A stretch of 64,000 nucleotides of DNA from contig CM000151.3 of the NCBI GenBank assembly GCA_000004695.1, positions 2,432,001-2,496,000 of the forward strand, in the 5' to 3' direction. Below, in pieces: positions 5,740-60,088 of the stretch. Made by a program: the position numbers and the translations under genes. The notes beneath the pieces were generated by a model, which did not search any database, was not told the DNA's origin, and saw only the letters and a program-made list of their open reading frames with translations. Position 1 is the stretch's first letter, and each line of letters opens with the position of its first letter. Source of the stretch: Dictyostelium discoideum. Its lineage: Eukaryota.

Positions 5740-8700
5740 CTCTTTGAAAAACATAACATACAACCTTGATCTTCAATACAACAATGATGATATGAATGAC
5801 CACAATTTGGGAATACTATAATTGTAGCGGGTGTTGAACCTAAAAATGAAGATTCAGGATTTTCAGCTAAAGATAAGGTACAAATTGGACAAGAACCAGT
5901 TGATAATTCAGTTTCTACACCCCAATGTCTACGTGAATTATCTTCAAAGAATGAAGGTATTTTAAAATCGATATTATCACCACTATCATGACTTGAAGTT
6001 CCAAGTTTATTAAAGAATTCTTTGAATGGATTATTTGGTAAAGTTGGGTCCAATTCAGGACCAATCATAGTTAAGAATTGAGGTGAAATGGTCAAGGGTT
6101 TCTTTAACCATAAATGACTATCCAAAAGTGATAAGATATCATATGATAACTTTGGTCTATCATACAACGACCATTTTCCAAATTTAATCCAATCTGATAA
6201 TAATTTAGTTTCAATTTTACTCTTTTCAAACATTTCTGAAAATTTGCAAACCAATTCAATAGTTTCCAATGGACCAATTGCTTTACCAATTAAATCCAAT
6301 ATAAATAATTCTGAAATTTCAAATGTAATACTTGATTCACCAGATTGATCTTCATTTTCATGTTGATCAATTCTTAATTGTTTCATAATTTCTAAAGTAT
6401 TTGACCAAATTTCAATTGATGTACTATTTTCAAAACAATTTGAAAAACCTTTTTTATCATCAGTGAAAATGGTTAATTCCAAGAGTTTCTTTGAATAATG
6501 ATTCAATTGTTCTTGATTATGTAAAATGGATTTCATAGAATAAACATTTTTGAAATAATGTTCATAAATTTTATAAAGGCCAATATGAAAACCATTTTCA
6601 GCAGACATTGATTCCAATGATTTCAATAAATTACCATTACCATATTCATTATTAATTACATTATCAATAATTTGTATTAAAGTATCTTTTGATTTCCATT
6701 CAATTAAATTTGATTTTAATTTTGGTATAAATTTTCTTGTTGATGTTGTTGACATATCTTCTCTTTCTTCAAATAATTGATTTTGATTTGGTTTATTATT
6801 CATTAAATTTGAAAGGAACCATTGTTCTAATAATTCTAGTGAATTAAATTTACATTCTGGTTTTAATTTCATTAATTGATTTAAATATTCAAATTTAATT
6901 AAATTACCTAATTCTTTATTACTTCTACTACCACCACCACTATCATTACTTTTATTAATAATAATATCATCGTTTTCAATTAAAGAATTTGTAAAATTTA
7001 AAATATTTCTTGGTAATATAATTGGGAAATGTTTTGCAAAGAATTTTGAAGATTCAATTGGATCCAATTCTAATAATTGATTTAAGAATCTAAATAATAA
7101 TCCATAATCATTTGAACAATGACTATCCAATAATGTTAAACAAGTTGAAGAATCTGAAGAATCAATGAATTGATAAATGGTTGAGATTATCTTTGATTCT
7201 TGTTTTGTAAATGATTCAAATTCAACCAATTGTTCTATACATCTATCCCATTTACGTTCATTTGAATTTAAATAAACTCTATTGGTATTTAAAAATTGAT
7301 AATACTCTTTAATGAATTCAATTGCTAATTGTTCATTCCAACACTTACAAAGTTTATTTGTATGTGTTAAACTTTTACCATTTCCACCACTACCACTACC
7401 ACCACCAGTACTACACTCTTTAGTAGATTTCAAATTTATACCAAAACAGAAACAACTTGTAACTATATCTTTTATCATATCACTTGGAATAACACTATCT
7501 TCGATAGAATTAAATAATTGTACCCAAATTTGTAACATTGGTTCAAATGATGTTGTTTTTGTCTTATTCTCTTTATATTGTTGTAAAGATTCATAGGTTT
7601 GTTTGGTTAATTTCTCTAAAACTTCAATTGGATGTTGTTGTGATTGTTGTTCATTTACTATTGTTGTATTTAAATTATCTGTTATTGTTGTTGCTGTTGT
7701 TGCTGTTGCTGTTGCTGTTGTTGTATTATTTAATGTTACATTTGTATTATTACTTGAATTTATATCATCACCACTTGATGGACCTAAAATTTTATGTGTA
7801 ATATCAGATTTAATTTCATTTGTTTTATTTAATGCAAATTGCTTAATCTCCAAGAATGATGATGTAGCTGAATTTAATGTTTTAAAAATACCCTGTTGTA
7901 TATTATTAGCTGTAACTGTTGTTGCTGATGTTGGTATTGGTGTTGGTGTTGGTGCTATTGTAGTTTCTTCTTTTTTTGGTGATAATGATACTTCTGCTGG
8001 TGTGGTTGTTGTTGTTGTTGTTGATGATGATACGGTTTCTACATATAAAGGTGGTGATGGTGTAGGATTTGAAATTGGTGGCGATGAGATTTGTGGTGTG
8101 GTTGTAGTTGTAGTTGATAATGCCGCTGCTTTTTTAATAATTTTTTTCTTTACAATAACTGTTCTTTTGACTTCTGTTGGTGCTCCTATTGATGTTGATG
8201 TTGCTGTTGCTGTTGTTGCTGTTGTTGATGATGATACTATTGATTGTGGTGGTGAAGTTGATAGAGTTGCTGTATTATTTGTTCCATTTAATTGTTGATC
8301 CTGTGGTAATGCTGTTTTTATAACCTTTTTCTTTATAACCTTTCTAGTTGTTGATGCAGCTAAAGTTGGATCTTTAACACTTGTTGATACCATTAATGGT
8401 TCTGATGATAAAGGAATATCTGAGAAAATACATTCTTTTGATGCTACTCTTTGAATTGATGTTTCAACTGCTGTTGTCGTTGTTGTACTATCCAATAATT
8501 TATCATCAACGAATTGATCAGTTGATGATTTTAATGATGAAGGTTGTTGTTGTTGTTGTTGTTGTTGTTGTTGGTTTGATGATTCACTAACTAATGGCAA
8601 ACTTGCACTACCTTCAATAGTTAATGAATTTGTACTACTTGATAATGTAGAATTATCAGTATTTGTACTATCAATTTCACTACCAATTATATTATCACTA

Positions 8701-22252: not shown

Positions 22253-23566
22253 TTAAATTCTTTTTTTAATGGATACATTAAATTTATTCTTGCATCTTAA
22301 TGTAACTCCATACAATTCAGTTTCATCAATTTGTTTCCCATCAATTGAACTAAATTTAAAATTTAAAATTATATTTGAAAATGCAAGAAACATTTCATCT
22401 AATGCAAAATTTTGACCACTTAAAAAAAAAAAAAAAATTAATTTAACAATTTTTAAATAAATAATTAAAAAAAATAATAAAATAAATAATTTTTTTTTAC
22501 TTACACACAATTTCTTGTACCAATACTAAATGGTAAAAATGCAATATTTGTATCTGGATTCATAAATCTTGATGGTTCAAATTGTTCAGGATTTTCAAAA
22601 TAATCTTGATTTCTTGAAAGTCCATAATAATTTATAAAAATTTGAGCATCTTTTGGAATGAATTTATCACCAATTATAATATCTTGAGAAGTAGTTCTTG
22701 GTACACCAACAGAAGATGGTGGTTTATATCTTAATGTTTCTTTAATAAATGAAACTGTATATGGTGTAAATTGTCTATCAGATAATAAAACTTTATTTCT
22801 ACCGTTAACAGTTAATTTAATTTCATCATATACTTTCTCTTGAATTTCTGGATAATTAACTAACATCATAACCATATATTCTAATGAAGCACTACTTGTA
22901 TCAGTACCTATTTTAAATAAATTTATTAATAATTGAAATTTTTTAATAAAAAATAATAAAACTAATTTAATACAAACCAGCTAAAAATAAATCATTTATA
23001 GTTGCAATAATTGTTAAAATATCATCATCACTTCCACTATAATATTCTTTAATTAATAAATCTAATAAATCTCTTTGAATTTCTGGATTATAAGTTTTTA
23101 AATGTTGATGATATTTTTTTTTTAAAAAATTTAAAATTTTTGGATAATTTTTATCAGTATGTTCAATCCATTGATAATATAATGGTCTTGATATTAATAA
23201 AACATCAAATAAACTACCACTTCCTAAATCTTTGAAAACTTGTTCAATTGGCCCAATTAATTCAGATATTTCATTATTAAAATTTATTTCTTCATTGAAA
23301 ATGAATTTATACATTGCTGCCATTGTATATTTTTTAAAATAAATACGTGGTTCAAATACTTGTCCATCACTTTCAATTTTATTCATTGATTCAATTAAAT
23401 TATCAACTTGTTGATCTAATGAATCATAAATTAATTTTAAATTGGTTTTTCTCATTGCTTTATTAATTATATCTCTAATTTTTAACCAATATTCACCAGA
23501 AGATGCTTTTTTTTTTAAAAAAAAAAAAAAAAAAAAATTAATAATTAATTTTTTTTTTAGTTTTTT

Positions 23567-23603
<37 letters not shown>

Positions 23604-23917
23604 CTAACTTGCAATACCATGATAATGAGTTGCATGTCTTATTGAAGGTATTTTTGGTCTGTCTAGGAAATAATCACCATTGTTAACAAACATTTCTCTA
23701 ATCAAAATTGGATCAGATAATACAACAGTGTATAAATCAGCAAACCAAAATCTATAAATTCCACCATATTTTTCAGATATTTTAGTTAAATCTCTGTGTG
23801 GTAAACCACTTGTAAGTTGATATAAATTTCCTAAAATTGGAATTGGAATTGGTCCTTTTAATTCATTTTTATTTATTTTTTTAAATTTAATATACTGATA
23901 AAAATTGATTTAATTTC

Positions 23918-23961
<44 letters not shown>

Positions 23962-24121
23962 TATTTAAATTTTACCATATCTGTGTTTAGAAAAAAGTAT
24001 AATTATTATTATTATCCTTTTTTTTTTTTTTTTTTTATTAAAATTAAAGAAAAAATACAAACAGTATTATGGATTATATAAAAAATTATTAGAAACAATA
24101 TTAATTTTAAAAACTCCATTA
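22253..24121 (-). CDS. Cytochrome P450 (tandem copy 3); ~5 exons; start [19 protein letters not shown] at ~24121
   Basis: ORFs 22967-23635 (…[25 protein letters not shown]…) and 22501-22875 (…[18 protein letters not shown]…[10 protein letters not shown]); last exon via TGT GT|gtaagt … ttaag|T gives [57 protein letters not shown]. Intron positions match copies 1 and 2. Confidence 0.75.
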
Positions 24122-24292
24122 TGTTTTACTTGTAGTTTTATTGCAATAAATTTTTTTTTTTTTTTTTTTTAAAATTATATAATAGATAAAAAATAAAAAA
24201 TAAAAAAAAAAAAATTAAAAAAATTAAAAATAAAAAAATTAATTTATTTTCAAAAAAAAATCTTGGGGTCAATCCTAAAAAATTAAATGCCA

Positions 24293-24354
<62 letters not shown>

Positions 24355-24668
24355 CAATTTTATTTAATTAATCTGTGGTACGAATTAAAATCTTTATCTA
24401 TTAAAAAAACCAATTAATAATAAAAAATTAATTATATAATTAAAATACACATAAACAAATTGTTTTTTTGTATTAAATTCTTTTTTACTTCTTTAACATG
24501 TTTTTTATAAAAATAAAATATTTTTTTTTTATCATTTTTTTTTTTTTTTTTTTAATTAAAATTCTATACCACCCAATAAAAAAATCTTAATATATAATTA
24601 ACAAATGAAAACCCAATAAATATCCCTTGACAATTGTCAAATATTAATCAAAAAAAAAAAAAAAAAAA

Positions 24669-24719
<51 letters not shown>

Positions 24720-24930
24720 TAATTATAATATAAATAAAATAATAATAATAATTAATTTTTATATAAAAAAAGAGGGGAAATGGGACAGAGGAGAAAAATA
24801 AAAAAAAAAAAATTTTTAAAATTACAAAAAAAATAAAAAAAAAATCTTGTGTTAAATTTATAATCTTTTATTATTAACTTTATTTTATTTTTTTTTTTTT
24901 TTTTAATATTAAAAAGACCAGTAATTTTAA

Positions 24931-25617
24931 TTATTTAATTGGGTCAACATCAAAAGAGCAAACTAAAAAAGTATCAAACTCTATGATTGTTGAAAGACCG
25001 TTATAATGAATATCGTTAATACCATAACGATAAATACCATGAGGAGAATTTGAAATGTTAATTCTAGTTTTCTTATAGTCAAACCATTGTTTTTGCTCCT
25101 TGTACATGTATTGATATGCTTTGGTATAAATTGCCAATAAATCCAAAGAGGAAATTGGAATGTTTGGATCAGGTTTTGTGACTTTAATAACGGATTTCTT
25201 TAATTGATATTTACCAAAAACACAATAGACATGATCCACATATCTACCAACACCATACAGGTTTTTATCCTTGTCAACGATTAATTTGTCATTAATAAAT
25301 GACTCTGTTTTTTCATTTTTTAAATTACCATTTGATTCTGATAATAGCTTATTGAATTGAATTAATTCATTCTTATTCTTTATTGGTAATGAATTACTAT
25401 CGATTGATACAATACCTTGATTTTTAATCTTCTTTTTCTTTTCATTTAATTGATTATTTAATTTATTTTGAAAATTATCAATATCATTAACATTAGATGC
25501 TGGTGATGCACAAACTGGTAATATCTCTTTATCAATTTTTTGAATTTTTGATTTTGAAATTATTTTTCTTTCATCTTCTGATGCATTATCCATATAAATT
25601 TTATTAATTTCAAACAT
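24931..25617 (-). CDS. Hypothetical protein (228 aa), paralogue A of an unknown family
   Basis: Single ORF. C-terminal half (VDHVYCVFGKYQLKKSVIKVTKPDPNIPISSLDLLAIYTKAYQYMYKEQKQ…HGIYRYGINDIHYNGLSTIIEFDTFLVCSFDVDP) is clearly homologous to the 26351-26935 ORF. Confidence 0.6.
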   Translation of the reverse strand: MFEINKIYMDNASEDERKIISKSKIQKIDKEILPVCASPASNVNDIDNFQNKLNNQLNEKKKKIKNQGIVSIDSNSLPIKNKNELIQFNKLLSESNGNLKNEKTESFINDKLIVDKDKNLYGVGRYVDHVYCVFGKYQLKKSVIKVTKPDPNIPISSLDLLAIYTKAYQYMYKEQKQWFDYKKTRINISNSPHGIYRYGINDIHYNGLSTIIEFDTFLVCSFDVDPIK

Positions 25618-26002
25618 TTTATTTATTATTTGGTTATTTTTTATTATGAAACAATATTTTTTTTTTTTTTTTTTTTTGTTTTTTGTTTTTCAATTTATTT
25701 AAATTAAAATGAAAATGAAAATGAAAATTTCAATTTTAAAATCCTTATTTATAGTTTAATTTTAATATGAGGTTTTATTTTTAAAAAAAAAAAATAAAAA
25801 AAAAAAAAAAAATAAAAAAAAAAAAAAAAATAAAATAAAATAAAATAAAACAAAGTTTATTTTAAAGGTTATATATCATGTTCTATGGATCTTTTTTTAT
25901 GAAAAAAATTTCTAAAATAATACAAATATATATTTTTAGTAATCTTCCATTTTTGTTAAAATAAAAAAAAAATAATAAAAAAAAAAAAAAAAAAAATTTA
26001 AA

Positions 26003-26058
<56 letters not shown>

Positions 26059-26313
26059 CAATTCAAGAGGCAATATGAAAAAGAGCCAGGATCTTGGTGC
26101 TTAAAATGGAAATTATAAAAAATTTAATTAAAAAGATTAAAAGAAAATATAAATAAAAAAAAAAAAAAAAATCAAAATTTCTAAAAAAAAAAAACAAAAA
26201 AATTACAAAAATAGATTAAAAGAAAATTAAATAAAAAATAAAAAAAATAAAAAAATCTAAATTTTTCTATTTTTGTAATATTTTTTTTTTTTTTTAGATA
26301 TTTTATTTATTAT

Positions 26314-26350
<37 letters not shown>

Positions 26351-26356
<6 letters not shown>

Positions 26357-26935
26357 ATCTACTCTAAATTCACAAAAAATGAAATCTTTATAGATTAAAA
26401 CATCTGAAAAACCATTGTAAACTAAATCTGAAAGATCGTGACCCCAAATTCCATATCTGCCATGAGAAACACCTCTATTAAGCATACCTTGAATGTGACC
26501 AGGATTACCTACTTCTTTTTCCTCTTCTTCATAGATGAATTGAAAAGCTTTTGAATAAATTGCTAATAATTCAACATTGGTCAAGGGTTGTAATGAATTT
26601 GCATCTGGTCTTGTTACTTTAATAGTTACAGGATTTGCAGTATAGGCATCAATGAAACAATATACATGTTTAGTATTATCACCACCTTCAATTAATACAG
26701 TCTCTTTAAATAAATCATCGTCAGTTTGATTTGGTTGATTAAATGATTCTAATCCCCATGATTTTTTAGATAATGCATCTTCTTTTAAATAATTTTTATA
26801 ATTTTCTAATGTTGTAATTTGTTTATTTGGTGCACCAATATCTTTTAAAATATTTTCTAATTTTTTAATTGGTTTTAATCCTTCTATTTCTTTTAATTCT
26901 TCTGAATTTGCATCGCGAAATAAATAATTTTCCAT
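26351..26935 (-). CDS. Hypothetical protein (194 aa), paralogue B of the same unknown family
   Basis: …KHVYCFIDAYTANPVTIKVTRPDANSLQPLTNVELLAIYSKAFQFIYEEEEK…HGRYGIWGHDLSDLVYNGFSDVLIYKDFIFCEFRVDS. Shares the V-Y-C…IKVT+PD…LLAIY(T/S)KA(Y/F)Q(Y/F)…HG.YG…YNG(L/F)S…C.F.VD motifs with paralogue A. Confidence 0.6.
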
Positions 26936-27038
26936 TTTATTTTATTTTTTTTTTTTTAACTTGCTCAACGATGAAGTTTGTGATGAATAATTATAAAAAA
27001 AATAAAAAAAAAAAAAAATAAAAAGTAGTGTGTTAAAG

Positions 27039-27070
<32 letters not shown>

Positions 27071-27563
27071 ATTTTTATTTCAAAAGAGTCTCGTTATATT
27101 TACTATTAATTATTAAATTCTTGGTAAAATCGATTTGTTTATGATAATAATAAAAAACTGATATTTTTTTTTTTTTGGGATTTTTTTTTTTTTTTGGGAA
27201 TTTTTTTTTTTTTTTTTTTAACTTTTTTATCAAAAAGAAATTTTATAATATTAAAAAAAAAAAAAAAAATAATAATATATTACAAAAAATTATTTATATT
27301 TAAGTATTATTATTTGTTTTTAAAACTAAATAAAAAAAAAAAAAAAAAATACCGTTTTGCACTCGAAAAAAATTTGTGTCAATTGTAATCCCTAAAAAAA
27401 GAGTATTATAAAAAGGTGTGTATTTTTTTAAAAAAAAATGTGTTGCTTTGCATCTTTTAAAATATCCAAAAAAAATTTTAAAAATGATTTGAATTTTATT
27501 AAAAAAAAAAAAAAAATATCTAGTAATAATTGGTTTGTGTAAGTGTAAATCCTTTTTTTTTTA

Positions 27564-28204
27564 TTAATTTATTATACAATTATTTTTTTCGGGGGATTGT
27601 GTTTTTTTTAGAGAAGTTTCTTCAATTCTATTTATACAAAGCTTTACTAAAGAGATAAAAGCCTCTTCAATGTTAATTGATTGTTTTGCACTTATTTCTT
27701 TGAATGGAATATCTAAAGAATCGGCAAATTCTTGAGCTAAAAAAGGGTCAACCACTTTTTGTGAGACTAAATCATTTTTATTTCCAATTATAATTTTAAT
27801 GACATTTTCATTTGCATATCTTCGGATATCTTCTATCCATGAGGGAACATTTTCAAATGATCTTTGATCTGTAACATCATAAACTATAATAACTCCATGA
27901 CAACCTCTATAATGTGAATTATGAACTCTAAATCGCTTTTCTCCAGCTGTATCCCAAATTTGAAGTTTTATTGGTTTACCTTCAATATAAACTGTCTTTA
28001 TTTTAAACTCAATACCAATTGTTATATGTGTTTCAGTAAATGTATCATCTGTAATTCTAAATAAAATGCTTGTTTTACCTTTTTTTTAATAATTAATAAT
28101 TAATTTATTTATTTAATTATTAATTATTATTATTTATTATTTATTGCAGTTAATATTTACCAACTCCACTATCACCTGCAAGTACAAATTTGAATAAGTG
28201 TCTA

Positions 28205-28247
<43 letters not shown>

Positions 28248-28326
28248 TTAATATTTTTTCAACAAAAAAAAAAAAGAAAAAAATAAAAAATAGATTCTTA
28301 CTCATATTCTTTACTCATTTTAATTG
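27564..28326 (-). CDS. Rab-family small GTPase with non-canonical switch II (WDTAGEKRF) and C-terminal CIIN; 3 exons approx. 28326-28310, ~28222-28176, ~28078-27564
   Basis: Reverse-complement reading gives MSKEYE|HLFKFVLAGDSGVG|KTSILFRITDDTFTETHITIGIEFKIKTVYIEGKPIKLQIWDTAGEKRFRVHNSHYRGCHGVIIVYDVTDQRSFENVPSWIEDIRRYANENVIKIIIGNKNDL…EISAKQSINIEEAF…SPEKNNCIIN*. G1 (GDSGVGKT), G4 (GNKND) and G5 (ISAK) present. The Rab signature WDTAGQERF is altered: Q to E, E to K. Confidence 0.7.
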
Positions 28327-28372
28327 TATTTTATAAAAATTATATTACATTTTTTTTTTCTTGAACCAAAAA

Positions 28373-28418
<46 letters not shown>

Positions 28419-28951
28419 GAATTTCAATATAATAAAAAAAAAAATTAAAAAAAAAATAAAAAAAATAAAAAAAAAAAAAAAAAAAAATCACCTGAGGGAT
28501 TTTAATAATAATAAACAAATAAATAATAATTGAAAAACAAAAAATAATAAACTTTATTTGTTTTTTTAAAAAAAAAAAAATTAATGGTCAATGATTTTTT
28601 TTTTTCTCTCAGTTAGTGTAGGGAAATTAAATTAAAAAATTCACTGGAAAGAAATTTTATTGAAAATTCCCTGCAACATTTACAATTTTCTTAATAAATT
28701 GGAAATTAAAAGACAAAACACAATTGTGTTAAAACCATTTTTTTAAGTAATCAAATTAATGCACTCATATTTCTTTTTAAACTGTATTATATAATATGTA
28801 ATATATATAATTATAATATAAACTTTTATTAAATATCAATGATAGGTTTAATTTAATGAAAATTATTATCATCAAGCTGTGTTGAATTAGTTCCTGTTGT
28901 TGCTGTTGTTTGTTGTTCAATAGGTAGTTTTAGATGATGAATCAATTATAT

Positions 28952-29717
28952 TTGGTGTTAGCGACCAGTAATACAAGGACCTATAATTTCATTTTGGTAT
29001 TTTTTTCCTGCAACATTAGGCATTACAACACAATTAGAAATTTTACATTTTTTAATTAGATCACAATCTCCTACTATATGTCTATTTTAAAAAATAATAA
29101 TAATTTCATTAATAAGATATTAAAAAAACATTATTTAAAAAGAATATATATATACATACAAAACAAAACCTTTATCAGTCATCTTTGAAAAATTTAAATA
29201 ACCAATAGATGGATCAACAGTAAAACCAATTCCATCTATAAGTAAATAGTCAAGTTTAAATCTTGAAATTAATGATTGTTGTAATGTGAATTTTTGAATT
29301 GTTGCTTCTTTACCAGAGTTTATGAATTGGATTTCCATTGCATTGACTCTTTTATACCAATCTTGATTAATTGAATCTATTGAAAAATTCTTGTAACCTT
29401 TTTGAGACATTTCATTATGAATTTGAAAATTTATTAATTCTAAATTTGGGAATAAATCCATTGATGGTACATTTGTATCAATATGATTGAGTGATAAACT
29501 CAATGTATTTATATATGTATTTATTTTTGTTAGTTTTGGATATTTAAAACCAGGTAATGTTTTTTTAACAATTATTCTATTAATAACTCCCTCAAACCAA
29601 ATTGAACTTAATGGCACAGAAATTGAATTAAATTGAACAGTTTTCAATTTTTCTGGGGGACTAAAATTATCTGGGAAAGGTTGTTCTTGTTTTGAAACTT
29701 CTCTATATCAATTAGAG

Positions 29718-29767
<50 letters not shown>

Positions 29768-30186
29768 AAAATAATGAAATTATAACAAATGAGAGTAATT
29801 ATCATTTATATTTACAAAAGCTCTAAATTTTTTAATAAAGGAAGTGTTTTTTCATAAAATACGGTTTGTATTTGAATATTTTCTTCAATTATTAATTCAG
29901 ATAAATATCGAAAAATACTGAAATCATAAGAAACAAAAGATAATCTTGTAGAGTTTATTCTAATTGTAGTTATACCATATGTTTTTGGTTCATAAATAGG
30001 TGAACATACAAAACAACCATAAAAACAAATTTCTTCTAAAGTTTTTGCTTCAAAATTATAAAGTGATTTTAGAATACTTTTAGCAGCAAGAATTTCATTT
30101 ATGGGGAATTCATTTCTATCAGCACCAATACTTTGATAATTTATATAAAAACAAATTAAAATAAAAATTAGGTTAATATATTTCAT
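28952..30186 (-). CDS. Secreted protein of unknown family (intact copy of a locally duplicated gene); 3 exons approx. 30186-29812, ~29686-29147, ~29095-28952
   Basis: Signal peptide MKYINLIFILICFYINYQSIGA. Donor GTAAAT after …KNLEL; acceptor ATATAG before EVSKQEQPFPDNFSPPEKLKTVQFNS…. Donor GTATGT after …KMTDKGFV; final exon HIVGDCDLIKKCKISNCVVMPNVAGKKYQNEIIGPCITGR*. Confidence 0.6.
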
Positions 30187-30419
30187 TTTTTTATAAAATT
30201 TAATTTTAAATAAAAAAATAAAAAACTAATTTCAAATTATTTATAAAGGAAAAAAAAAAAAAATAAAAATAAAAAAAACAACAATAATTAAAATTAAAAA
30301 AAAATAATAATAATTAAAATTATATAAAAATAATAATAAATGAATTATAATATAATTTTATTAAGACATATAATTCTTGATAAATGATAATTTATATCCA
30401 ACCCCTTTAAAAATATTTA

Positions 30420-30725
30420 CACAGAAATAATCACACCTTGACCTACACACATAAACACAGAAATAATCACACCCCCCCACTAAAATTTTTTTTGCTATTG
30501 TTTTAAGACTATATATCATAATGATTAAAAGTATGGCTTTAAATATTAGTGAATGGTAATAAATTTTAATTCAACCCCAATTAACACTTCACACGGATAC
30601 AATCTCACCCTCACCTGCACATACCCCACTAAAATTATTTTTTTTTTTTCCAAATTTTAAAAACTATTTTAATAATAAATAATATGTTTATTGTATCGAT
30701 TAAAAGTATGGTATAATTAATAGAT
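30420..30725. repeat. Two tandem copies of a ~120-bp sequence module (…cacac…ccactaaaatttttttt…ttttaagactatatatcataatgattaaaagtatgg…) lying 5' of the minus-strand secreted-protein gene
   Basis: 30420-30545 and 30590-30725 share the C/A-rich block plus 'ctaaaat…ttttaa…gattaaaagtatgg' core. Related copies also precede the degenerate gene copies (next feature). Confidence 0.6.
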
Positions 30726-31149
30726 CGAAATAATTTCATAATAATTACACTAATTTATTTAAAACATCCTAGATTTATGAAACTGTTTATGGATGCAATT
30801 TAATTAAAATTTTTAAATATTTGTGATATAAAGAAAAACATTATAAAATATTAAATTCTAAAATTAAATAAAAATGATCAATTTTTTAATTTTAAAGAAG
30901 GGAGGGGATCAGATTTAGTGCTAAAGATAATCCTCTTACATTGCTATTACCATTGTGGAGTTGGAAAGCCAAACATTCCATTTTTTTTTTTTTTAATAAA
31001 CAATCAAATAATCAACTGGTGTTACCGAGGTAGTTTTACAACAAATATTTCTAAATGTATTATGTGAGGTTGATGTAACAGTAGGTAGTACAACACAATT
31101 TGTAACTTTACATTCATTAACCAGATCACAAGTTCCATTTATTTTCCTA

Positions 31150-31784
31150 TTTTAAAAATAAAAAATATTATAAATTACATTAATAATACATAAAAAAAAA
31201 ATTTTTAAAAGCAATATATTTATACATATAAATCAATACCATATATATCATCCATCTTTGAAAAATTATTAAATAAATAACCAATAGATGGATCAAGAGT
31301 AAAACTAATTCCTTTGAAAACCAACCAACAAAGTTTAAATTTTGAAATTAATGATTGTTGTGATGTGAATTTTTGAATTGTTGCTTCATTACCAGAGTTA
31401 ATGAAATTGAACTCCAATGCCACATTTATATACTCGATTAATTGAATCAATTGAAAAATTCTTGTAACCTTTTTGAGACATTTCATTATAAATTCCAAAT
31501 CCCAATCCTAATAAATTTTTGATTAATTTCAATGATGGTACATTACTATCAATATGATTGAGTGTCAAATATAAATCCATTTATATTTAAATTTATATTT
31601 TTTTTGTTAATTTTGGATATATAAAACCAGGTAATGTATTATAAACATATAATGAATAAATATTTGCCTAAAACCAAATTGAACTTAATGGTACAAAAAT
31701 TGAATTAAATTGAACTCCTGACAATTTATCTGGGATATTAAATTTATCTGGGAAAGGATGTTCTTGGTTTGAAATTTCTCTATT

Positions 31785-31843
<59 letters not shown>

Positions 31844-32268
31844 AAAATAATGTTATTATAACAAAGTTGAGTAATTATAATACATATTTACAATTTTTTT
31901 AAATTTTTTAATAAAGGGAGTGTTTCATTATAAAACAAAGTTGTTAGTTGAACTTTTTCACCAATTACTAATTTAGTTAAGGATTTAAAAACATTGGGAT
32001 CCTGGGTAACAATAAAAATATTTCAAGATTTTTGCATTTTAATTGAAGTTATAGTATATAGTTTTGAAACATTATATAATGAACATTTAAAACAATCATT
32101 ATAATCACAAACTTCTTTAAAATTGTTTGTGCCAATATTATAAAGTGATTTTAGAATACCTATAGCAACAAGAGCTTCATTTATGGATACTTGATTTCCA
32201 AGAGAACTAATACTTTGATAATTTATATAAAAACAGATTATAATAAAAATTAATTTAATATATTTCAT
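31150..32268 (-). pseudogene. Degenerate paralogue of the 28952-30186 secreted-protein gene, frameshifted
   Basis: ORF 32023-32268 MKYIKLIFIIICFYINYQSISS… matches the intact signal peptide. Fragments 31398-31580 and 31220-31498 (…NSGNEATIQKFTSQQSLISKFKL…DPSIGYL…FSKMDD) match the intact copy's FINSGKEATIQKFTLQQSLISRFKL…DPSIGYLNFSKMTD but lie in different frames with stops between. A final-exon-like CDL…C segment is visible near 31060-31140. Confidence 0.6.
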
Positions 32269-32454
32269 TTTTTTAACAATTTAGTTAGGAAAAAAAAAAA
32301 TTAATTTCAAATTATTTATAAAGAAAAAAAAATTAAGAAAAAAAAAAAATAATAATAATAAAAATTTAATTATAAAAATAAATAATTATAATAATAAATT
32401 ATAATATATTATAAATTTTTTATTATTATTTTTTTATTTTTTTAATAAAAAACA

Positions 32455-33200
32455 CTAAAATAATCACTCACAAGAAATGTTTTTTTTCTATTTTAAGACT
32501 ATATATATCAAAATGATTAAAAGTAAGGTTATATATTTATGAATGGAAATTAATTTAAATTTTATCAATGAAAAATATAAAAAATTTTTTATTTTTATTT
32601 TTGTAGAAATATTTCTTAAAGAAACTGTTTTTGAATAATATATTTGTTTTTATAATAAGATTTTAGAAATTTCCCTATTAATTAAAAAAAAAAAAAAAAA
32701 AAATTAAATTAATGTAATTATATTATATAAGGTAAATGTAAAATAATAATTTATATTTACAAATTATCTAATTTCTTTAATTGAGGAAGAGATTTATTAT
32801 AAAATGAAGTAACAAGTTTAATTTTTAATTTAATATAGTTGGTGAAAAAACTGAGATCCTGGCTCACAATTAAAGTGTTTGAAGAGTTTACCATATTAAT
32901 TGAAGTAATATTATAAAGTGATTTTAGAATACTAATAGCAACACTTTTTCATTTGTTGACAATTAAATCTATTAAAATAGAATTAAAAATAGTATTTTTA
33001 TTAGAAATAATAATTTATAAAAGGTTTCAATTTTCAATTCTAGACAATTTAAAATTTTAATTGAACCCACACAAATATAATAACCCCCACCTACACACAT
33101 ACTCTCACCAATAATTTTTTTTTTTTTTTTTTCAATTAAAATTTTTAAAGACTATTTTTACACTATTCAATACTAATGATTAAAATGTATGGTATTAATT
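32455..33200. repeat. Further copies of the same upstream module (32455-32545 and 33060-33200), 5' of the degenerate gene copies
   Basis: …cactcacaagaaatgtttttttctattttaagactatatatatcaaaatgattaaaagtaaggtt… and …cccacctacacacatactctcaccaataatttttttt…aaagactatttttacactattcaatactaatgattaaaatgtatggtat…. Confidence 0.55.
32760..32960 (-). pseudogene. Third, fragmentary copy (5'-exon relic) of the same secreted-protein gene
   Basis: Minus strand reads …atttacaaattatctaatttctttaattgaggaag… and …ataaagtgattttagaatact…, similar to the exon 1/intron 1 region of the copies at 29800-30190 and 31900-32270; no intact ORF. Confidence 0.4.
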
Positions 33201-33457
33201 ATCAAATTATTTGAAATATCTCATTTTTTATGAAATAATTAATAAACTGTTTATTTGAAATTTTATTTTTATTAATAGTGGTAGATGGTGGAATGGAAGG
33301 GGTTATAAGAAAAAAAATATTTCAAAAAATTAATTTTAAATCAAGTAATTACTTTTTGAAATTAAATTATAAAATATGGTATGTTAAGATAAACTTTATA
33401 AAAATATTAAATTCTAAAATTAAAAAAAAAAAAATTTATTATTATTATTATTTTTAC

Positions 33458-33558
<101 letters not shown>

Positions 33559-34188
33559 AAGTTCAATATGATTTAAAAAGTTTATTAAATTGAAGAATAA
33601 TATAGAATTAGGGATGATGTTAGATATTTTGTGGGTTATTTTTGTAAAATTAAAAAAAAAAAATAAAAAAAATAAAAAAATAAAGAAAATAAAAATAAGA
33701 TTAATATCTGAATGTGTGATGTGATGTGATGTGATATGTTTTGATGTGGGTTTGCATAATTAAAAATTATAAACAAATAAAATATTCCTTTTTTTTTAAT
33801 GAGTTTCTAAAAATTTTAAACTTTTTATTTATTTAATCATGATTTTATTTTTAAAAAATCTTAAGCTAATTCATAATTACTTTTTTGTAAAATGAAAATA
33901 AAAAGAAAAATAAAAAAAAATAATATATAAAGTAAAATTTATAATTTGTATTCAGTTGTGTTTTATTTATTTACAGGTTTATTATTGTTGTTATTGCTTT
34001 TTTTTAAAAAAAAAAAAAAATAAAAATAAAAAAGTATGCGCTTTTAATTATCCAAAGATTTGTATGAAGTATATTATTGATGTTTTACTGCTGTTGTTGT
34101 TGTTGTTGTTGTTTGTTTGTATGAGTTTATATATGATTGAATTGTTAATTTTTTTTTTTTTTTCCTTTTATATTTCGTTATTCTTTTT

Positions 34189-34914
<726 letters not shown>

Positions 34915-35894
34915 TTCTTATTTTAAAATTATATGTATTGATTATATATTATGAATGTATGTATGTTTGTATGTATGTATGTATGTTTGTATAAGGTGGT
35001 ATATTATATAAGTATTGTATAATGAAGAATTATATTTGTTGTCGTTGTAGTGTGAAAATTTAAAAAATACAAATTATTAAAAAAAAAAGTTTTATTTGTA
35101 TTGGGAGAAATGTGTGAAAATTGAATTTTTTTTTTTTTTTTTTTTATGTGTAAAAGTTTTTAAATAAATAAATAATTAATAAATAAATAAATAAATTATA
35201 ATAAATTAATTTATTTTTGTCACACTTTTTTATTTTTTTTTTTTTTTTTCGACTAAAAATATTAAAAAAAAAAAAACTACCAGGTATGCATTTTCATGAA
35301 AATGATTTTTAGTTCCGTTTTTAATTATTTTTAATTTTTTTTTTTTAAAAATTAAATTTTTTTTTTTTAATTTAATTTTTTTTTAATTTTTTTTTTTTTT
35401 TGATCTTTTATCTTTGGGTAACAAAACAATTTTTTTTTATTTTTTATTTTTTTTTTTTTTTATTTCATCCTTATTCATAATAAGTAATTAATATTTGAAT
35501 GTGAAATTATGAACTTTTTAAAAAGAGTCATTTTTTTAAAAAATTTGTTTTCGTTATATTTATTCGAAATTGACAAAATTATTTTGTAAATAATTTAGAT
35601 GACAGGAAAATAAGATTTTATTGTAGTTTTTTTTGTTTTTTTTATTAGAGTTTTTATTATAAAATTTACGTAATAATGCCAAATAAAAATGTTTTCAAAC
35701 AAGTAATGTATTCCTTACTAAATAAATTAATTTAAATTTCTTCCCACATTATTATTATTTTTTTTTAATAATGATTGAAAAAATCACAATATTGATTGCG
35801 TAATAAATAATAAGAAAATAATAATAATAATAATAAATGATTCAATTAAAAAAAAAAAAAAAAAATTCCACGTCAATACCTTTTGGAATATTAG

Positions 35895-35972
<78 letters not shown>

Positions 35973-60014: not shown

Positions 60015-60088
60015 GCCTTAGTAGCTCAGTTGGTACGAGCGTGAGACTGAAGATCTTAAGGTCGCTGGTTCGATCCCGGCCTGAGGCA
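60015..60088 (+). tRNA. tRNA-Phe (anticodon GAA)
   Basis: GCCTTAG acceptor stem pairing with CTGAGGC (one G-U), discriminator A; D-arm GCTC-AGTTGGTAC-GAGC; anticodon arm TGAGA-CTGAAGA-TCTTA with GAA at positions 34-36; T-arm GCTGG-TTCGATC-CCGGC. No intron and no encoded CCA. Confidence 0.9.

What the first reader, a model, noticed from the sequence alone, without database searches (positions are those of the whole stretch)
28946..33200. Decaying tandem array of a secreted-protein gene carrying a duplicated ~120-bp upstream module
There is one intact 3-exon gene (signal peptide; Cys-rich C-terminus CDLIKKCKISNCVVM…GPCITGR) followed by two progressively degraded copies, one frameshifted and one only a 5' relic. 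Each copy is preceded on its 5' side by a conserved module (C/A-rich block, ctaaaat, T-run, ttttaagactatatatcataatgattaaaagtatgg). The intact gene has two tandem copies of the module. This looks like a birth-and-death gene family whose promoter or UTR element is co-duplicated. The module could be a shared developmental enhancer or a small non-autonomous element.
Basis: seen in the sequence. Interest (0 to 1): 0.6.

Follow-up and report, generated by a model that had tools for sequence, protein, structure and literature searches.

The report
Decaying gene array with copied promoter
This is an ordinary tandem family of Dictyostelium secreted or surface leucine-rich-repeat-like protein genes (one open gene, already annotated as DDB_G0273049, plus three dead remnants), and the repeated "module" is the family's own upstream control region, copied along with each gene.

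Summary

Four copies of a ~175-bp module lie upstream, all in gene orientation: M1 30390-30570, M2 30562-30746, M3 32450-32563, M4 33053-33223. The same module precedes family genes at syntenic positions in another D. discoideum lineage and in D. cf. discoideum, and weakly in D. dimigraforme. It occurs nowhere else in the 64-kb window or before a distant paralogue. It has no terminal inverted repeats, no RNA structure, no canonical DUSE and no Rfam hit.

Its G/T-rich part matches the GBF response element. That motif sits at -200 to -295 from the ATG in all seven module-bearing open genes of five genomes. Best reading: a co-duplicated 5' regulatory region, probably a GBF-type developmental promoter element, in a birth-and-death array.

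Side results: the "intact" gene has lost the ancestral Ser/Thr stalk and hydrophobic tail. It evolves at dN/dS about 1-1.3 (neighbouring genes 0.2) yet keeps its reading frame. Expression was not testable. Ordinary; low interest.

The parts
29816..30186 (-). Copy 1 (DDB_G0273049) exon 1, with ATG at 30186-30184. It encodes the signal-peptide-like N-terminus MKYINLIFILICFYINYQSIG.
   Evidence: 100% match to the AX4 protein.
29160..29702 (-). Copy 1 exon 2 (543 nt), the leucine-rich-repeat-like core. Intron 1 is 29815-29703 and intron 2 is 29159-29082 (GTATGT donor).
   Evidence: AF2 model and Foldseek LRR matches.
28958..29081 (-). Copy 1 exon 3 with the Cys-rich end and the TAA stop at 28960-28958.
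28853..28957 (-). Relic of the ancestral Ser/Thr-rich stalk. It lies in the same frame after the stop (..PIEQQTTATTGTNSTQLDD..) and is now untranslated.
   Evidence: compare P0003, P0005 and P0006.
30227..30248 (-). Core-promoter block CTTTATAAATAATTTGAAATTA (TATA box) about 60 bp before the copy 1 ATG. An identical 22-mer lies before copy 2, and a CCTATAAATAAT-type block is present in all five genomes.
30390..30570 (-). Module M1, proximal to copy 1. It holds five overlapping GBF-type G-box matches (30445-30479) and an internal 38-bp direct duplication (30420-30437 and 30458-30475).
30562..30746 (-). Module M2, distal to copy 1. It is the orthologue of the module before P0004 in D. cf. discoideum (80% identity) and 93% identical to its counterpart in L002.
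30901..30960 (-). Fourth relic: a 20-codon fragment of family exon 2 (NVRGLSLALN..).
   Evidence: 75% identity to P0003 residues 184-203; larger counterpart in L002 690-900.
30993..32268 (-). Copy 2, a pseudogene with three-exon layout, an in-frame stop at 32025-32023 and frameshifting indels in exon 2.
32302..32323 (-). TATA block of copy 2, identical to that of copy 1.
32450..32563 (-). Module M3, before the pseudogene. It is the most degraded copy: the G/T-rich block is mostly lost and there is no G-box match.
32660..32987 (-). Copy 3 relic: part of exon 1 (32987-32763, with an internal deletion and no start codon) plus a remnant of intron 1 and the first bases of exon 2.
33053..33223 (-). 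Module M4, before the relic. It holds five G-box matches (33065-33099) and is the orthologue of the module before P0003 in D. cf. discoideum.
33204..33288 (-). Distal conserved blocks of the same upstream region. Block C is AAAAAATGAGATATTTCAAATAATTT (33229-33204), identical in three species. Block B is 33259-33244 and block A is 33288-33269.

Best explanation
The region is a tandem array of a gene family restricted to group-4 Dictyostelium. The family encodes secreted or surface leucine-rich-repeat-like proteins, and in D. discoideum the array is decaying.

Each duplication copied the gene together with its 5' regulatory region. It lies about 150-330 bp upstream of a conserved TATA block.

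In gene orientation the module reads:
- TACCATTCA;
- ATACCATAC(A)TTTTAATC;
- a TATA-like AT stretch;
- an A-run;
- TTAGTGGG;
- a G/T-rich block;
- GGGGTTGAATTAAAATTT.

[quoted passage not shown] It most likely confers post-aggregative, developmentally regulated transcription on whichever family gene follows it. The other conserved blocks bind unknown factors.

The double module before the open gene arose by recombination between paralogous units. M2 came from a P0004-type unit whose gene body was lost, and M1 came in with the copy 1/copy 2-type unit.

Shown here: the duplication structure, the pseudogene status, the orthology and gene-linked distribution of the module, and the positional conservation of G-box motifs. 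Inferred only: GBF binding, developmental expression and the recombination route.
For: Array and decay:
- D. cf. discoideum has four open tandem genes, and D. dimigraforme and D. firmibasis have one each.

Module tied to the genes:
- All four window copies are in gene orientation and nowhere else in the 64 kb.
- Modules lie about 300 bp before the ATG of P0003 and P0004 in D. cf. discoideum and before both genes of L002.
- There is a weak hit at the expected place in D. dimigraforme.
- There is none before the distant paralogue DDB_G0284073.

Conservation:
- Between species whose synonymous divergence is 0.45-0.55, a 26-nt block is identical and several other blocks align within otherwise unalignable AT-rich DNA.
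- The GBF element (T/G)G(T/G)G(T/G)G(T/G) (PMC2257962) occurs on the sense strand at -200 to -295 in all 7 module-bearing open genes of 5 genomes. The background is about 1.2 per kb for both strands together.
- The element is absent before pseudogene copy 2.
- The modules before the open gene score highest (117 and 110 bits), against 74 and 52 bits for those before dead copies.

Precedent: the clustered sigN genes share conserved promoter regions with paired GBF sites (PMC2257962).
Against: - No expression, transcription-start or binding data could be obtained. The gene IDs appear in no searchable paper text and in none of the expression or proteome supplements tried.
- Between close species the module is no better conserved than the flanks. 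AX4 versus D. cf. discoideum modules are 71-80% identical, against 81-86% for flanking DNA. Constraint is therefore visible only in the distant comparisons.
- M2 and M3 have no strict G-box match.
- One family gene of D. cf. discoideum (g4) has no module, and another (g3) has only half of one at about -500.
- G-box matches are common in this window in general: 59 observed against 24 expected.
Confidence: 0.72

Rival explanations
1. Neutral passenger. The module is simply non-coding DNA carried along by recent segmental duplications. Its similarity reflects shared ancestry only, not function.
For: Module identity between AX4 and D. cf. discoideum (71-80%) is not above that of the flanks (81-86%). 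Copies differ by many indels. M3 is not recovered by an independent profile.
Against: Blocks persist in D. dimigraforme, where synonymous sites are about 34-39% different. A 26-nt exact match there has roughly a 1% chance under neutrality. A G/T-rich island with G-box motifs is kept at the same distance from the ATG in five genomes, although its sequence has turned over. The modules before dead genes are the most degraded.
Confidence: 0.17
2. Divergent non-coding-RNA promoter. Read on the plus strand, the C-rich CCCACTAA resembles the Dictyostelium upstream sequence element (DUSE). AAAAGTATGG, AAATGTATGG or AAATGTGG 53-78 nt further on resembles the TGTG box of Class I RNA genes. On this reading each module would drive a small RNA transcribed away from the protein gene.
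For: The resemblance to DUSE plus TGTG box as described in PMC7919456 and PMC3188802. One copy in L002 has an exact AAATGTG about 54 nt after CCCACTAA. A T-run follows conserved block C on the plus strand near M4.
Against: No module contains a canonical DUSE [AT]CCCA[ACT]AA. M3, M4 and one D. cf. discoideum copy lack the CCC run. The spacing varies from 53 to 78 nt instead of about 60. There is no Class I motif CCTTACAGC nearby. There is no Rfam hit at gathering score or at E<=10. Neither strand folds better than shuffled sequence, with z from -0.9 to +2.2. The sequence beyond the box is not conserved between M1-type and M2/M4-type copies.
Confidence: 0.05
3. Small non-autonomous mobile element, or a dispersed repeat, that happens to sit near these genes.
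For: Repeated ~175-bp units begin and end with a similar short sequence (GGTTGAATTAAAATTT).
Against: There are no terminal inverted repeats beyond low-complexity A/T. The flanking short repeat is the same in every copy, so it is not a target-site duplication. Orientation relative to the genes is constant and positions are orthologous across species. There are no copies elsewhere in the window, in five syntenic loci or before a distant paralogue.
Confidence: 0.03

Closest known systems
DDB_G0273049 / DDB_G0273933 (UniProt Q556N0), hypothetical protein of D. discoideum AX4
   Same: Copy 1 encodes exactly this 345-aa protein. The two gene IDs sit on one 8.48-Mb contig. From my own knowledge, that fits the known duplicated segment of AX4 chromosome 2.
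   Different: Nothing differs; the open gene is already annotated. The pseudogene, the relics and the upstream module are not described in any paper text I could search.
sigN gene clusters of D. discoideum, with conserved promoter regions carrying paired GBF sites (PMC2257962)
   Same: Both are clustered, recently duplicated genes for small secreted or surface proteins. In both, the upstream regions are alignable between paralogues and contain G-rich (T/G)G(T/G)G(T/G)G(T/G) motifs.
   Different: The proteins are unrelated: here an LRR-like domain of ~345-420 aa. GBF dependence and prestalk expression were shown experimentally for sigN genes and are only inferred here. Most members of this array are dead.
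DUSE plus TGTG-box promoters of Class I and other non-coding RNA genes (PMC7919456, PMC3188802)
   Same: A C-rich octamer ending in AA, followed some tens of nucleotides later by an AAA(T)GT(G/A) box, in AT-rich intergenic DNA.
   Different: The consensus is not met, the spacing is inconsistent and there is no RNA gene downstream.
Extracellular leucine-rich-repeat proteins (plant LRX, internalins and similar), and Dictyostelium relatives such as DICPUDRAFT_94639 and IPT/TIG-domain proteins
   Same: The predicted fold is a beta-strand/helix solenoid, and all its best PDB matches are LRR proteins. There is a weak Pfam LRR hit. A D. purpureum relative is named as LRR N-terminal-domain-containing. 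Some relatives add IPT/TIG domains.
   Different: All matches fall below family thresholds (Pfam 18 bits against a cut-off of 27.9; Foldseek E>=3e-3, TM about 0.3). Relatives are found only in group-4 Dictyostelium.

Membership tests
Tandem birth-and-death gene array with pseudogenes | Paralogous copies lie head-to-tail, with similarity extending through introns and flanks. | tested here: met
   Spacing is ~2076 bp, with 72-85% identity through exons, introns and the proximal promoter.
Tandem birth-and-death gene array with pseudogenes | Disabling mutations in some copies are real rather than assembly artefacts, and copy number differs between related genomes. | tested here: met
   The stop and frameshifts of copy 2 are identical in the independent assembly L001. 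There are 4 open genes in D. cf. discoideum, 2 in L002 and 1 each in two other species.
GBF-responsive (G-box / C/A-rich element) developmental promoter | [quoted passage not shown] | tested here: met
   M1 and M4 each have five overlapping matches. M2 and M3 have only near-matches. The motif lies at -200 to -295 in 7 of 7 module-bearing open genes. The element definition is from PMC2257962.
GBF-responsive (G-box / C/A-rich element) developmental promoter | The gene is induced after aggregation and depends on gbfA, and GBF binds the element. | not testable with these tools
   No expression or binding data were available. The gene IDs are absent from searchable texts and from the held supplements tried.
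DUSE / TGTG-box non-coding RNA promoter (Class I RNA type) | A canonical DUSE [AT]CCCA[ACT]AA with three consecutive Cs. | tested here: not met
   None of the 14 matches in the window lies in a module. The modules have CCCACTAA, AACACTAA, CACCAATAA and similar.
DUSE / TGTG-box non-coding RNA promoter (Class I RNA type) | About 60 nt from the DUSE to the transcription start or TGTG box, followed by a small RNA with a terminal stem and the CCTTACAGC(A)A motif. | tested here: not met
   Spacing is 53-78 nt. The motif is absent within one mismatch anywhere near the modules. There is no Rfam match and no fold signal.
Non-autonomous transposable element (MITE-like) | Terminal inverted repeats and insertion-specific target-site duplications. 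| tested here: not met
   Only low-complexity A/T inverted repeats were found. The short direct repeat at the ends is the same in all copies.
Non-autonomous transposable element (MITE-like) | Dispersed copies at unrelated loci. | tested here: inconclusive
   None was found in the 64-kb window, in five syntenic loci or in one paralogue locus. The whole Dictyostelium genome could not be searched with the DNA tools available.
Leucine-rich-repeat ectodomain proteins | A significant match to an LRR profile, or an LRR solenoid fold. | tested here: inconclusive
   Pfam LRR_RPS2 scores 18.2 bits against a cut-off of 27.9. The AF2 model has pLDDT 68 and pTM 0.71. All top Foldseek PDB hits are LRR proteins, but with E>=3e-3 and TM about 0.3.
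GPI-anchored surface glycoprotein (ancestral form of the family) | An N-terminal signal peptide, a Ser/Thr-rich stalk and a C-terminal hydrophobic tail. | tested here: not met
   These features are present in P0003, P0005 and P0006 by inspection. Copy 1 and its L002 orthologue stop before the stalk and tail. No GPI predictor was available, so the anchor itself is an inference.

The most novel reading that the evidence does not exclude
The anchor-less D. discoideum-lineage genes (AX4 copy 1 and the two genes of L002) may not be decaying. They could be secreted LRR-like proteins under diversifying selection.

Between AX4 and L002 they change amino acids 7 times faster than neighbouring genes at equal synonymous divergence (dN/dS 1.0-1.3 against 0.2). 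They nevertheless keep open reading frames that neutral drift would almost certainly have broken (P about 0.0002).

They sit in an array whose copy content differs between lineages, behind a GBF-type multicellular-stage promoter module. That pattern would fit a social-conflict, self-recognition or microbe-interaction locus.
Probability: 0.2. Interest if true: 0.5.

Novelty: new member of a known kind. Interest (0 to 1): 0.2.

Why it matters
It matters little for general biology. Tandem families with dead copies and co-duplicated promoters are routine, and the open gene is already annotated.

Locally it is useful in three ways:
- It gives Dictyostelium annotators a pseudogene, two relics and a defined cis-regulatory region with conserved blocks. 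That region is testable with standard promoter-reporter constructs.
- It flags DDB_G0273049 as a truncated, fast-evolving, lineage-restricted LRR-like secreted protein, which may be worth a population-genetic look.
- It documents how array content differs among closely related Dictyostelium genomes.

Tried and rejected
RNA-gene readings:
- An Rfam scan of the whole window and a permissive scan of 30200-33600 found only tRNA-Phe and one chance snoRNA-like hit at E 6.5.
- The Class I RNA motif and the canonical DUSE were searched for and are absent from the modules.
- RNA folding of all four modules on both strands showed no signal.

Mobile-element reading:
- An inverted-repeat search for transposon ends found only A/T low complexity.

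Transcription-factor sites:
- MEF2/CArG-type readings of CTTAAAATAG and CCATACTTTT were considered. They rest on one-mismatch resemblances in some copies only, so they were dropped.
- An apparent TTGAnnnTTGA motif after M4 was noted but not pursued.

Expression evidence:
- The gene IDs occur in no paper text.
- The expression and proteome supplements that could be searched had no entry.
- The only occurrence was in a supplementary gene list of Sucgang et al. 2011, with an automatic and probably erroneous 'RabA-like' description. It was uninformative.

Searches that could not be run:
- Phage, plasmid and E. coli DNA collections and the prokaryotic contig scans were not used, because they cannot contain Dictyostelium DNA.
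- A genome-wide copy count of the module was therefore not possible.

Evolutionary history:
- The exact rearrangement history, including the different layout in L002 and a locally inverted module half at L002 1225-1260, was looked at but not resolved.


Full report
**What the DNA is**

The window is about 20% G+C, with long A and T runs. An independent D. discoideum assembly (GCA_054883475.1, locus L001) is 98.9% identical to window 23047-35935 in reverse orientation.

The protein I assembled from the minus strand is 100% identical over 345 aa to D. discoideum AX4 DDB_G0273049/DDB_G0273933 (Q556N0). Both gene IDs are on an 8.48-Mb contig. From my own knowledge, the paired IDs fit the duplicated segment of AX4 chromosome 2. 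The open gene is therefore already annotated, as a hypothetical protein.

**Checking the observation**

All features are on the minus strand.

- Copy 1 has its ATG at 30186. Exon 1 is 30186-29816, intron 1 is 29815-29703, exon 2 is 29702-29160, intron 2 is 29159-29082 (GTATGT donor) and exon 3 is 29081-28958 including the stop.
- Copy 2 (32268-30993) aligns with copy 1 through exons, introns and about 130 bp of proximal promoter, at 72-85% identity and a spacing of ~2076 bp.
- Copy 2 has an in-frame TGA (32025-32023) and +5, +1 and -5 indels in exon 2.
- The same indels are in L001, with only one mismatch between the two assemblies.
- Copy 3 (32987-32763 plus an intron remnant to ~32660) is a piece of exon 1 with an internal deletion and no start codon.
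It is 20 codons of exon 2 and is 75% identical to residues 184-203 of the D. cf. discoideum protein P0003.

**The modules**

Four copies exist: M1 30390-30570, M2 30562-30746, M3 32450-32563 and M4 33053-33223. All are in the orientation of the genes.

A profile made only from the two D. cf. discoideum modules recovers M2 (E 4e-15), M4 (1.5e-9) and M1 (3e-5) in the window. Nothing else scores below E 2.6. With the full profile M3 is also found (E 5e-15), and again nothing else in the 64 kb.

**The gene family**

Only six homologues were returned from 5.8 billion proteins, all from the D. discoideum species group. A profile search of 1.8 billion representatives found 29 relatives. All those looked up are group-4 Dictyostelium hypothetical proteins, and some are longer and carry IPT/TIG domains.

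Pfam gives only a sub-threshold LRR hit. An AlphaFold model (pLDDT 68, pTM 0.71) has LRR proteins as all of its best PDB matches, though weakly.

The orthologues in D. cf. discoideum, D. dimigraforme and D. firmibasis (412-420 aa) continue after the Cys-rich region. They add a Ser/Thr-rich stalk and a hydrophobic C-terminal tail, a GPI-anchor-like design by inference. Copy 1 stops at GPCITGR. In the same frame, two stops later, there is still ..QQTTATTGTNST.., the fossil of the stalk. The orthologue in a divergent D. discoideum lineage (L002) is truncated at nearly the same point. The 'intact' gene is thus a truncated derivative.

**Birth and death**

All five external loci are syntenic: GST-like gene, 180-aa gene, family gene or genes, then a 228-aa gene and P450 genes, with a Ras-family GTPase gene between them in the D. 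discoideum loci.

- D. cf. discoideum has four open tandem genes.
- D. dimigraforme and D. firmibasis have one each.
- L002 has two open genes plus remnants, in a different layout.
- AX4 has one open gene plus three remnants.

An exon-2 tree puts AX4 copy 1 with the two L002 genes. Pseudogene copy 2 is their sister, followed by P0004 and P0003.

**What the module is**

In gene orientation each module reads:
- (GGTTGAATTAAAATTT) TACCATTCA;
- ATACCATAC(A)TTTTAATC;
- an AT-rich, TATA-like stretch;
- an A-run;
- TTAGTGGG;
- a G/T-rich block;
- GGGGTTGAATTAAAATTT.

The module sits about 150-330 bp upstream of a conserved TATA block. That block is CTTTATAAATAATTTGAAATTA at 30227-30248 and is identical at 32302-32323. 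Related blocks occur in all species.

The module precedes P0003 and P0004 in D. cf. discoideum at about -310, and both genes in L002. Half a module lies before the third D. cf. discoideum gene, and none before the fourth. It is absent before the distant paralogue DDB_G0284073.

A four-species alignment of the region upstream of the first array gene shows that the module is the centre of a longer conserved region:
- block A, CCATCTACCACCATTGATAA;
- block B, TTCAAATAAACTGTTT;
- block C, AAAAAATGAGATATTTCAAATAATTT, a 26-mer identical in AX4 (33229-33204), D. cf. discoideum and D. dimigraforme.

With about 34% difference at synonymous sites between those species, an exact 26-mer is expected by neutrality with a probability of about 1% over the whole region (my calculation). 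Degenerate B- and C-like blocks also lie distal to M2 and M3 (reading).

**Likely mechanism**

[quoted passage not shown] That definition comes from PMC2257962, which describes the sigN gene clusters, whose alignable promoters carry paired GBF sites.

M1 and M4 each contain five overlapping matches. M2 and M3 contain only near-matches. Across five genomes, all seven module-bearing open genes have sense-strand matches between -200 and -295 of the ATG. This includes D. dimigraforme and D. firmibasis, where the block can no longer be aligned base for base. Pseudogene copy 2, the module-less fourth gene of D. cf. discoideum and DDB_G0284073 have none on the sense strand there. The background is about 1.2 matches per kb for both strands.

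The modules before the open gene are the best preserved (117 and 110 bits). Those before dead copies are worse (74 and 52 bits), and M3 has lost most of its G/T block.

I therefore read the module as the family's upstream activating region, probably GBF-responsive, duplicated with each gene. GBF binding and developmental expression are inferences. I found no expression data.

**Origin of the double module**

M2 is 93% identical to its L002 counterpart and 80% identical to the module before P0004 in D. cf. discoideum. It is only 66% identical to M1. M1 groups with M3, at 71%.

M2 ends with GGGGTTGAATTAAAATTT, and that is exactly where M1 begins. The pair is therefore a junction between two paralogous units, not a fresh tandem duplication. 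The junction probably formed by recombination at that short shared sequence, with loss of the gene that M2 once served. That route is an inference. M1 also carries an internal 38-bp direct duplication that doubles part of its G/T block (30420-30437 and 30458-30475).

**Rivals**

1. Neutral passenger. Between AX4 and D. cf. discoideum the modules are no better conserved than the flanks. Constraint shows only at larger distances and in motif position. I give this 0.17.
2. Non-coding-RNA promoter on the plus strand. CCCACTAA and AAA(A/T)GT(A/G)(T)GG recall the DUSE and TGTG box. However, no canonical DUSE lies in any module. Three copies lack the CCC run, and the spacing is 53-78 nt. There is no Class I motif, no Rfam hit and no fold signal. 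I give this 0.05.
3. Mobile element. There are no terminal inverted repeats, no variable target duplications, a fixed orientation, orthologous positions and no stray copies in about 130 kb. I give this 0.03, with the caveat that the whole genome could not be searched.

**Side result on evolution**

Between AX4 copy 1 and its L002 orthologue, dS is 0.107 and dN is 0.142, giving dN/dS of 1.3. For exon 2 alone, dN/dS is 0.94-1.12 among the three open D. discoideum-lineage genes.

Five flanking ORFs compared between the same two genomes give dS 0.099, dN 0.019 and dN/dS 0.20. The method is therefore not distorted by AT bias. The anchored single-copy orthologues give 0.3-0.5.

The 126 differences are spread evenly over codon positions. 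Random substitution with the observed spectrum would introduce 8 stops on average and leaves the frame open in only 0.02% of trials. The open frame is therefore maintained while the protein sequence changes at or above the neutral rate. That means either diversifying selection or a very unusual escape. This is the most novel reading left open, and I put it at about 0.2.

**Verdict**

The feature is a routine tandem family with pseudogenes and a co-duplicated promoter region in a well-studied genome, and the open gene is already annotated. The conserved promoter blocks, the fourth relic, the lost anchor and the fast evolution are modest additions. Novelty: a new member of a known kind. Interest: about 0.2.

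Noticed in passing
window 30901-30960 (-): A fourth family remnant: 20 codons of exon 2 (NVRGLSLALN..), 75% identical to P0003 residues 184-203. It lies between the end of pseudogene copy 2 and module M2. A larger counterpart lies at L002 690-900.
   Followed up: partly
window 28853-28960 (-): After the stop of copy 1, the same frame still reads ..QQTTATTGTNST.. This is a fossil of the Ser/Thr-rich stalk that orthologues keep together with a hydrophobic C-terminal tail. The D. discoideum-lineage protein has lost its presumed membrane anchor.
   Followed up: yes
window 28958-30186 (-) versus L002 6001-7192: dN/dS is 1.3 (dS 0.107), against 0.20 for five flanking ORFs in the same genome pair. 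The reading frame is nevertheless retained, with P about 0.0002 under random substitution.
   Followed up: yes
window 33204-33229 (-): The 26-nt block AAAAAATGAGATATTTCAAATAATTT is identical in AX4, D. cf. discoideum and D. dimigraforme. It lies just distal to module M4 and contains the near-palindrome TATTTCAAATA. The binding factor is unknown.
   Followed up: partly
window 30420-30437 and 30458-30475: An internal 38-bp direct duplication inside M1 (CACAGAAATAATCACACC twice). The orthologous module in L002 has one unit, and the module before the other L002 gene has two.
   Followed up: partly
L002 1225-1260 versus 1346-1473: Before the first L002 gene, the distal half of a module (GTTATTAAAAGTATGGTGTTAAATATTTATGAAT) lies inverted relative to its proximal half. 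The overall layout of the array in L002 differs from AX4 and was not resolved.
   Followed up: no
L003 6001-13452: D. cf. discoideum has four open tandem family genes. The third has only the proximal half of a module at about -500, and the fourth has none.
   Followed up: partly
window 32995-33025 (-) and L003 ~5845-5865: Between module M4 and the copy 3 relic, ATTGAAAATTGAAAC (two TTGA units) is conserved between AX4 and D. cf. discoideum. It resembles, from memory, the TTGA-repeat sites of Dictyostelium STAT proteins. Not tested.
   Followed up: no
window ~33444-33558: A long (ATT)n microsatellite lies between the array and the next gene. Very long A and T homopolymer runs lie at 28215-28247 and 28375-28415.
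   Followed up: no
window 60015-60088 (+): A tRNA-Phe(GAA) gene, the only Rfam or ARAGORN hit in the window.
   Followed up: no
window 33629-33636 (-): A canonical DUSE octamer ACCCACAA lies outside the modules. Only microsatellite sequence lies about 60 nt downstream of it, so there is no RNA candidate.
   Followed up: no
PMC3188802, Additional file 4: DDB_G0273049 and DDB_G0273933 are listed there with the automatic description 'similar to Ras-related protein RabA'. That does not fit this protein. It probably stems from an old gene model merged with the neighbouring Ras-family gene.
   Followed up: no
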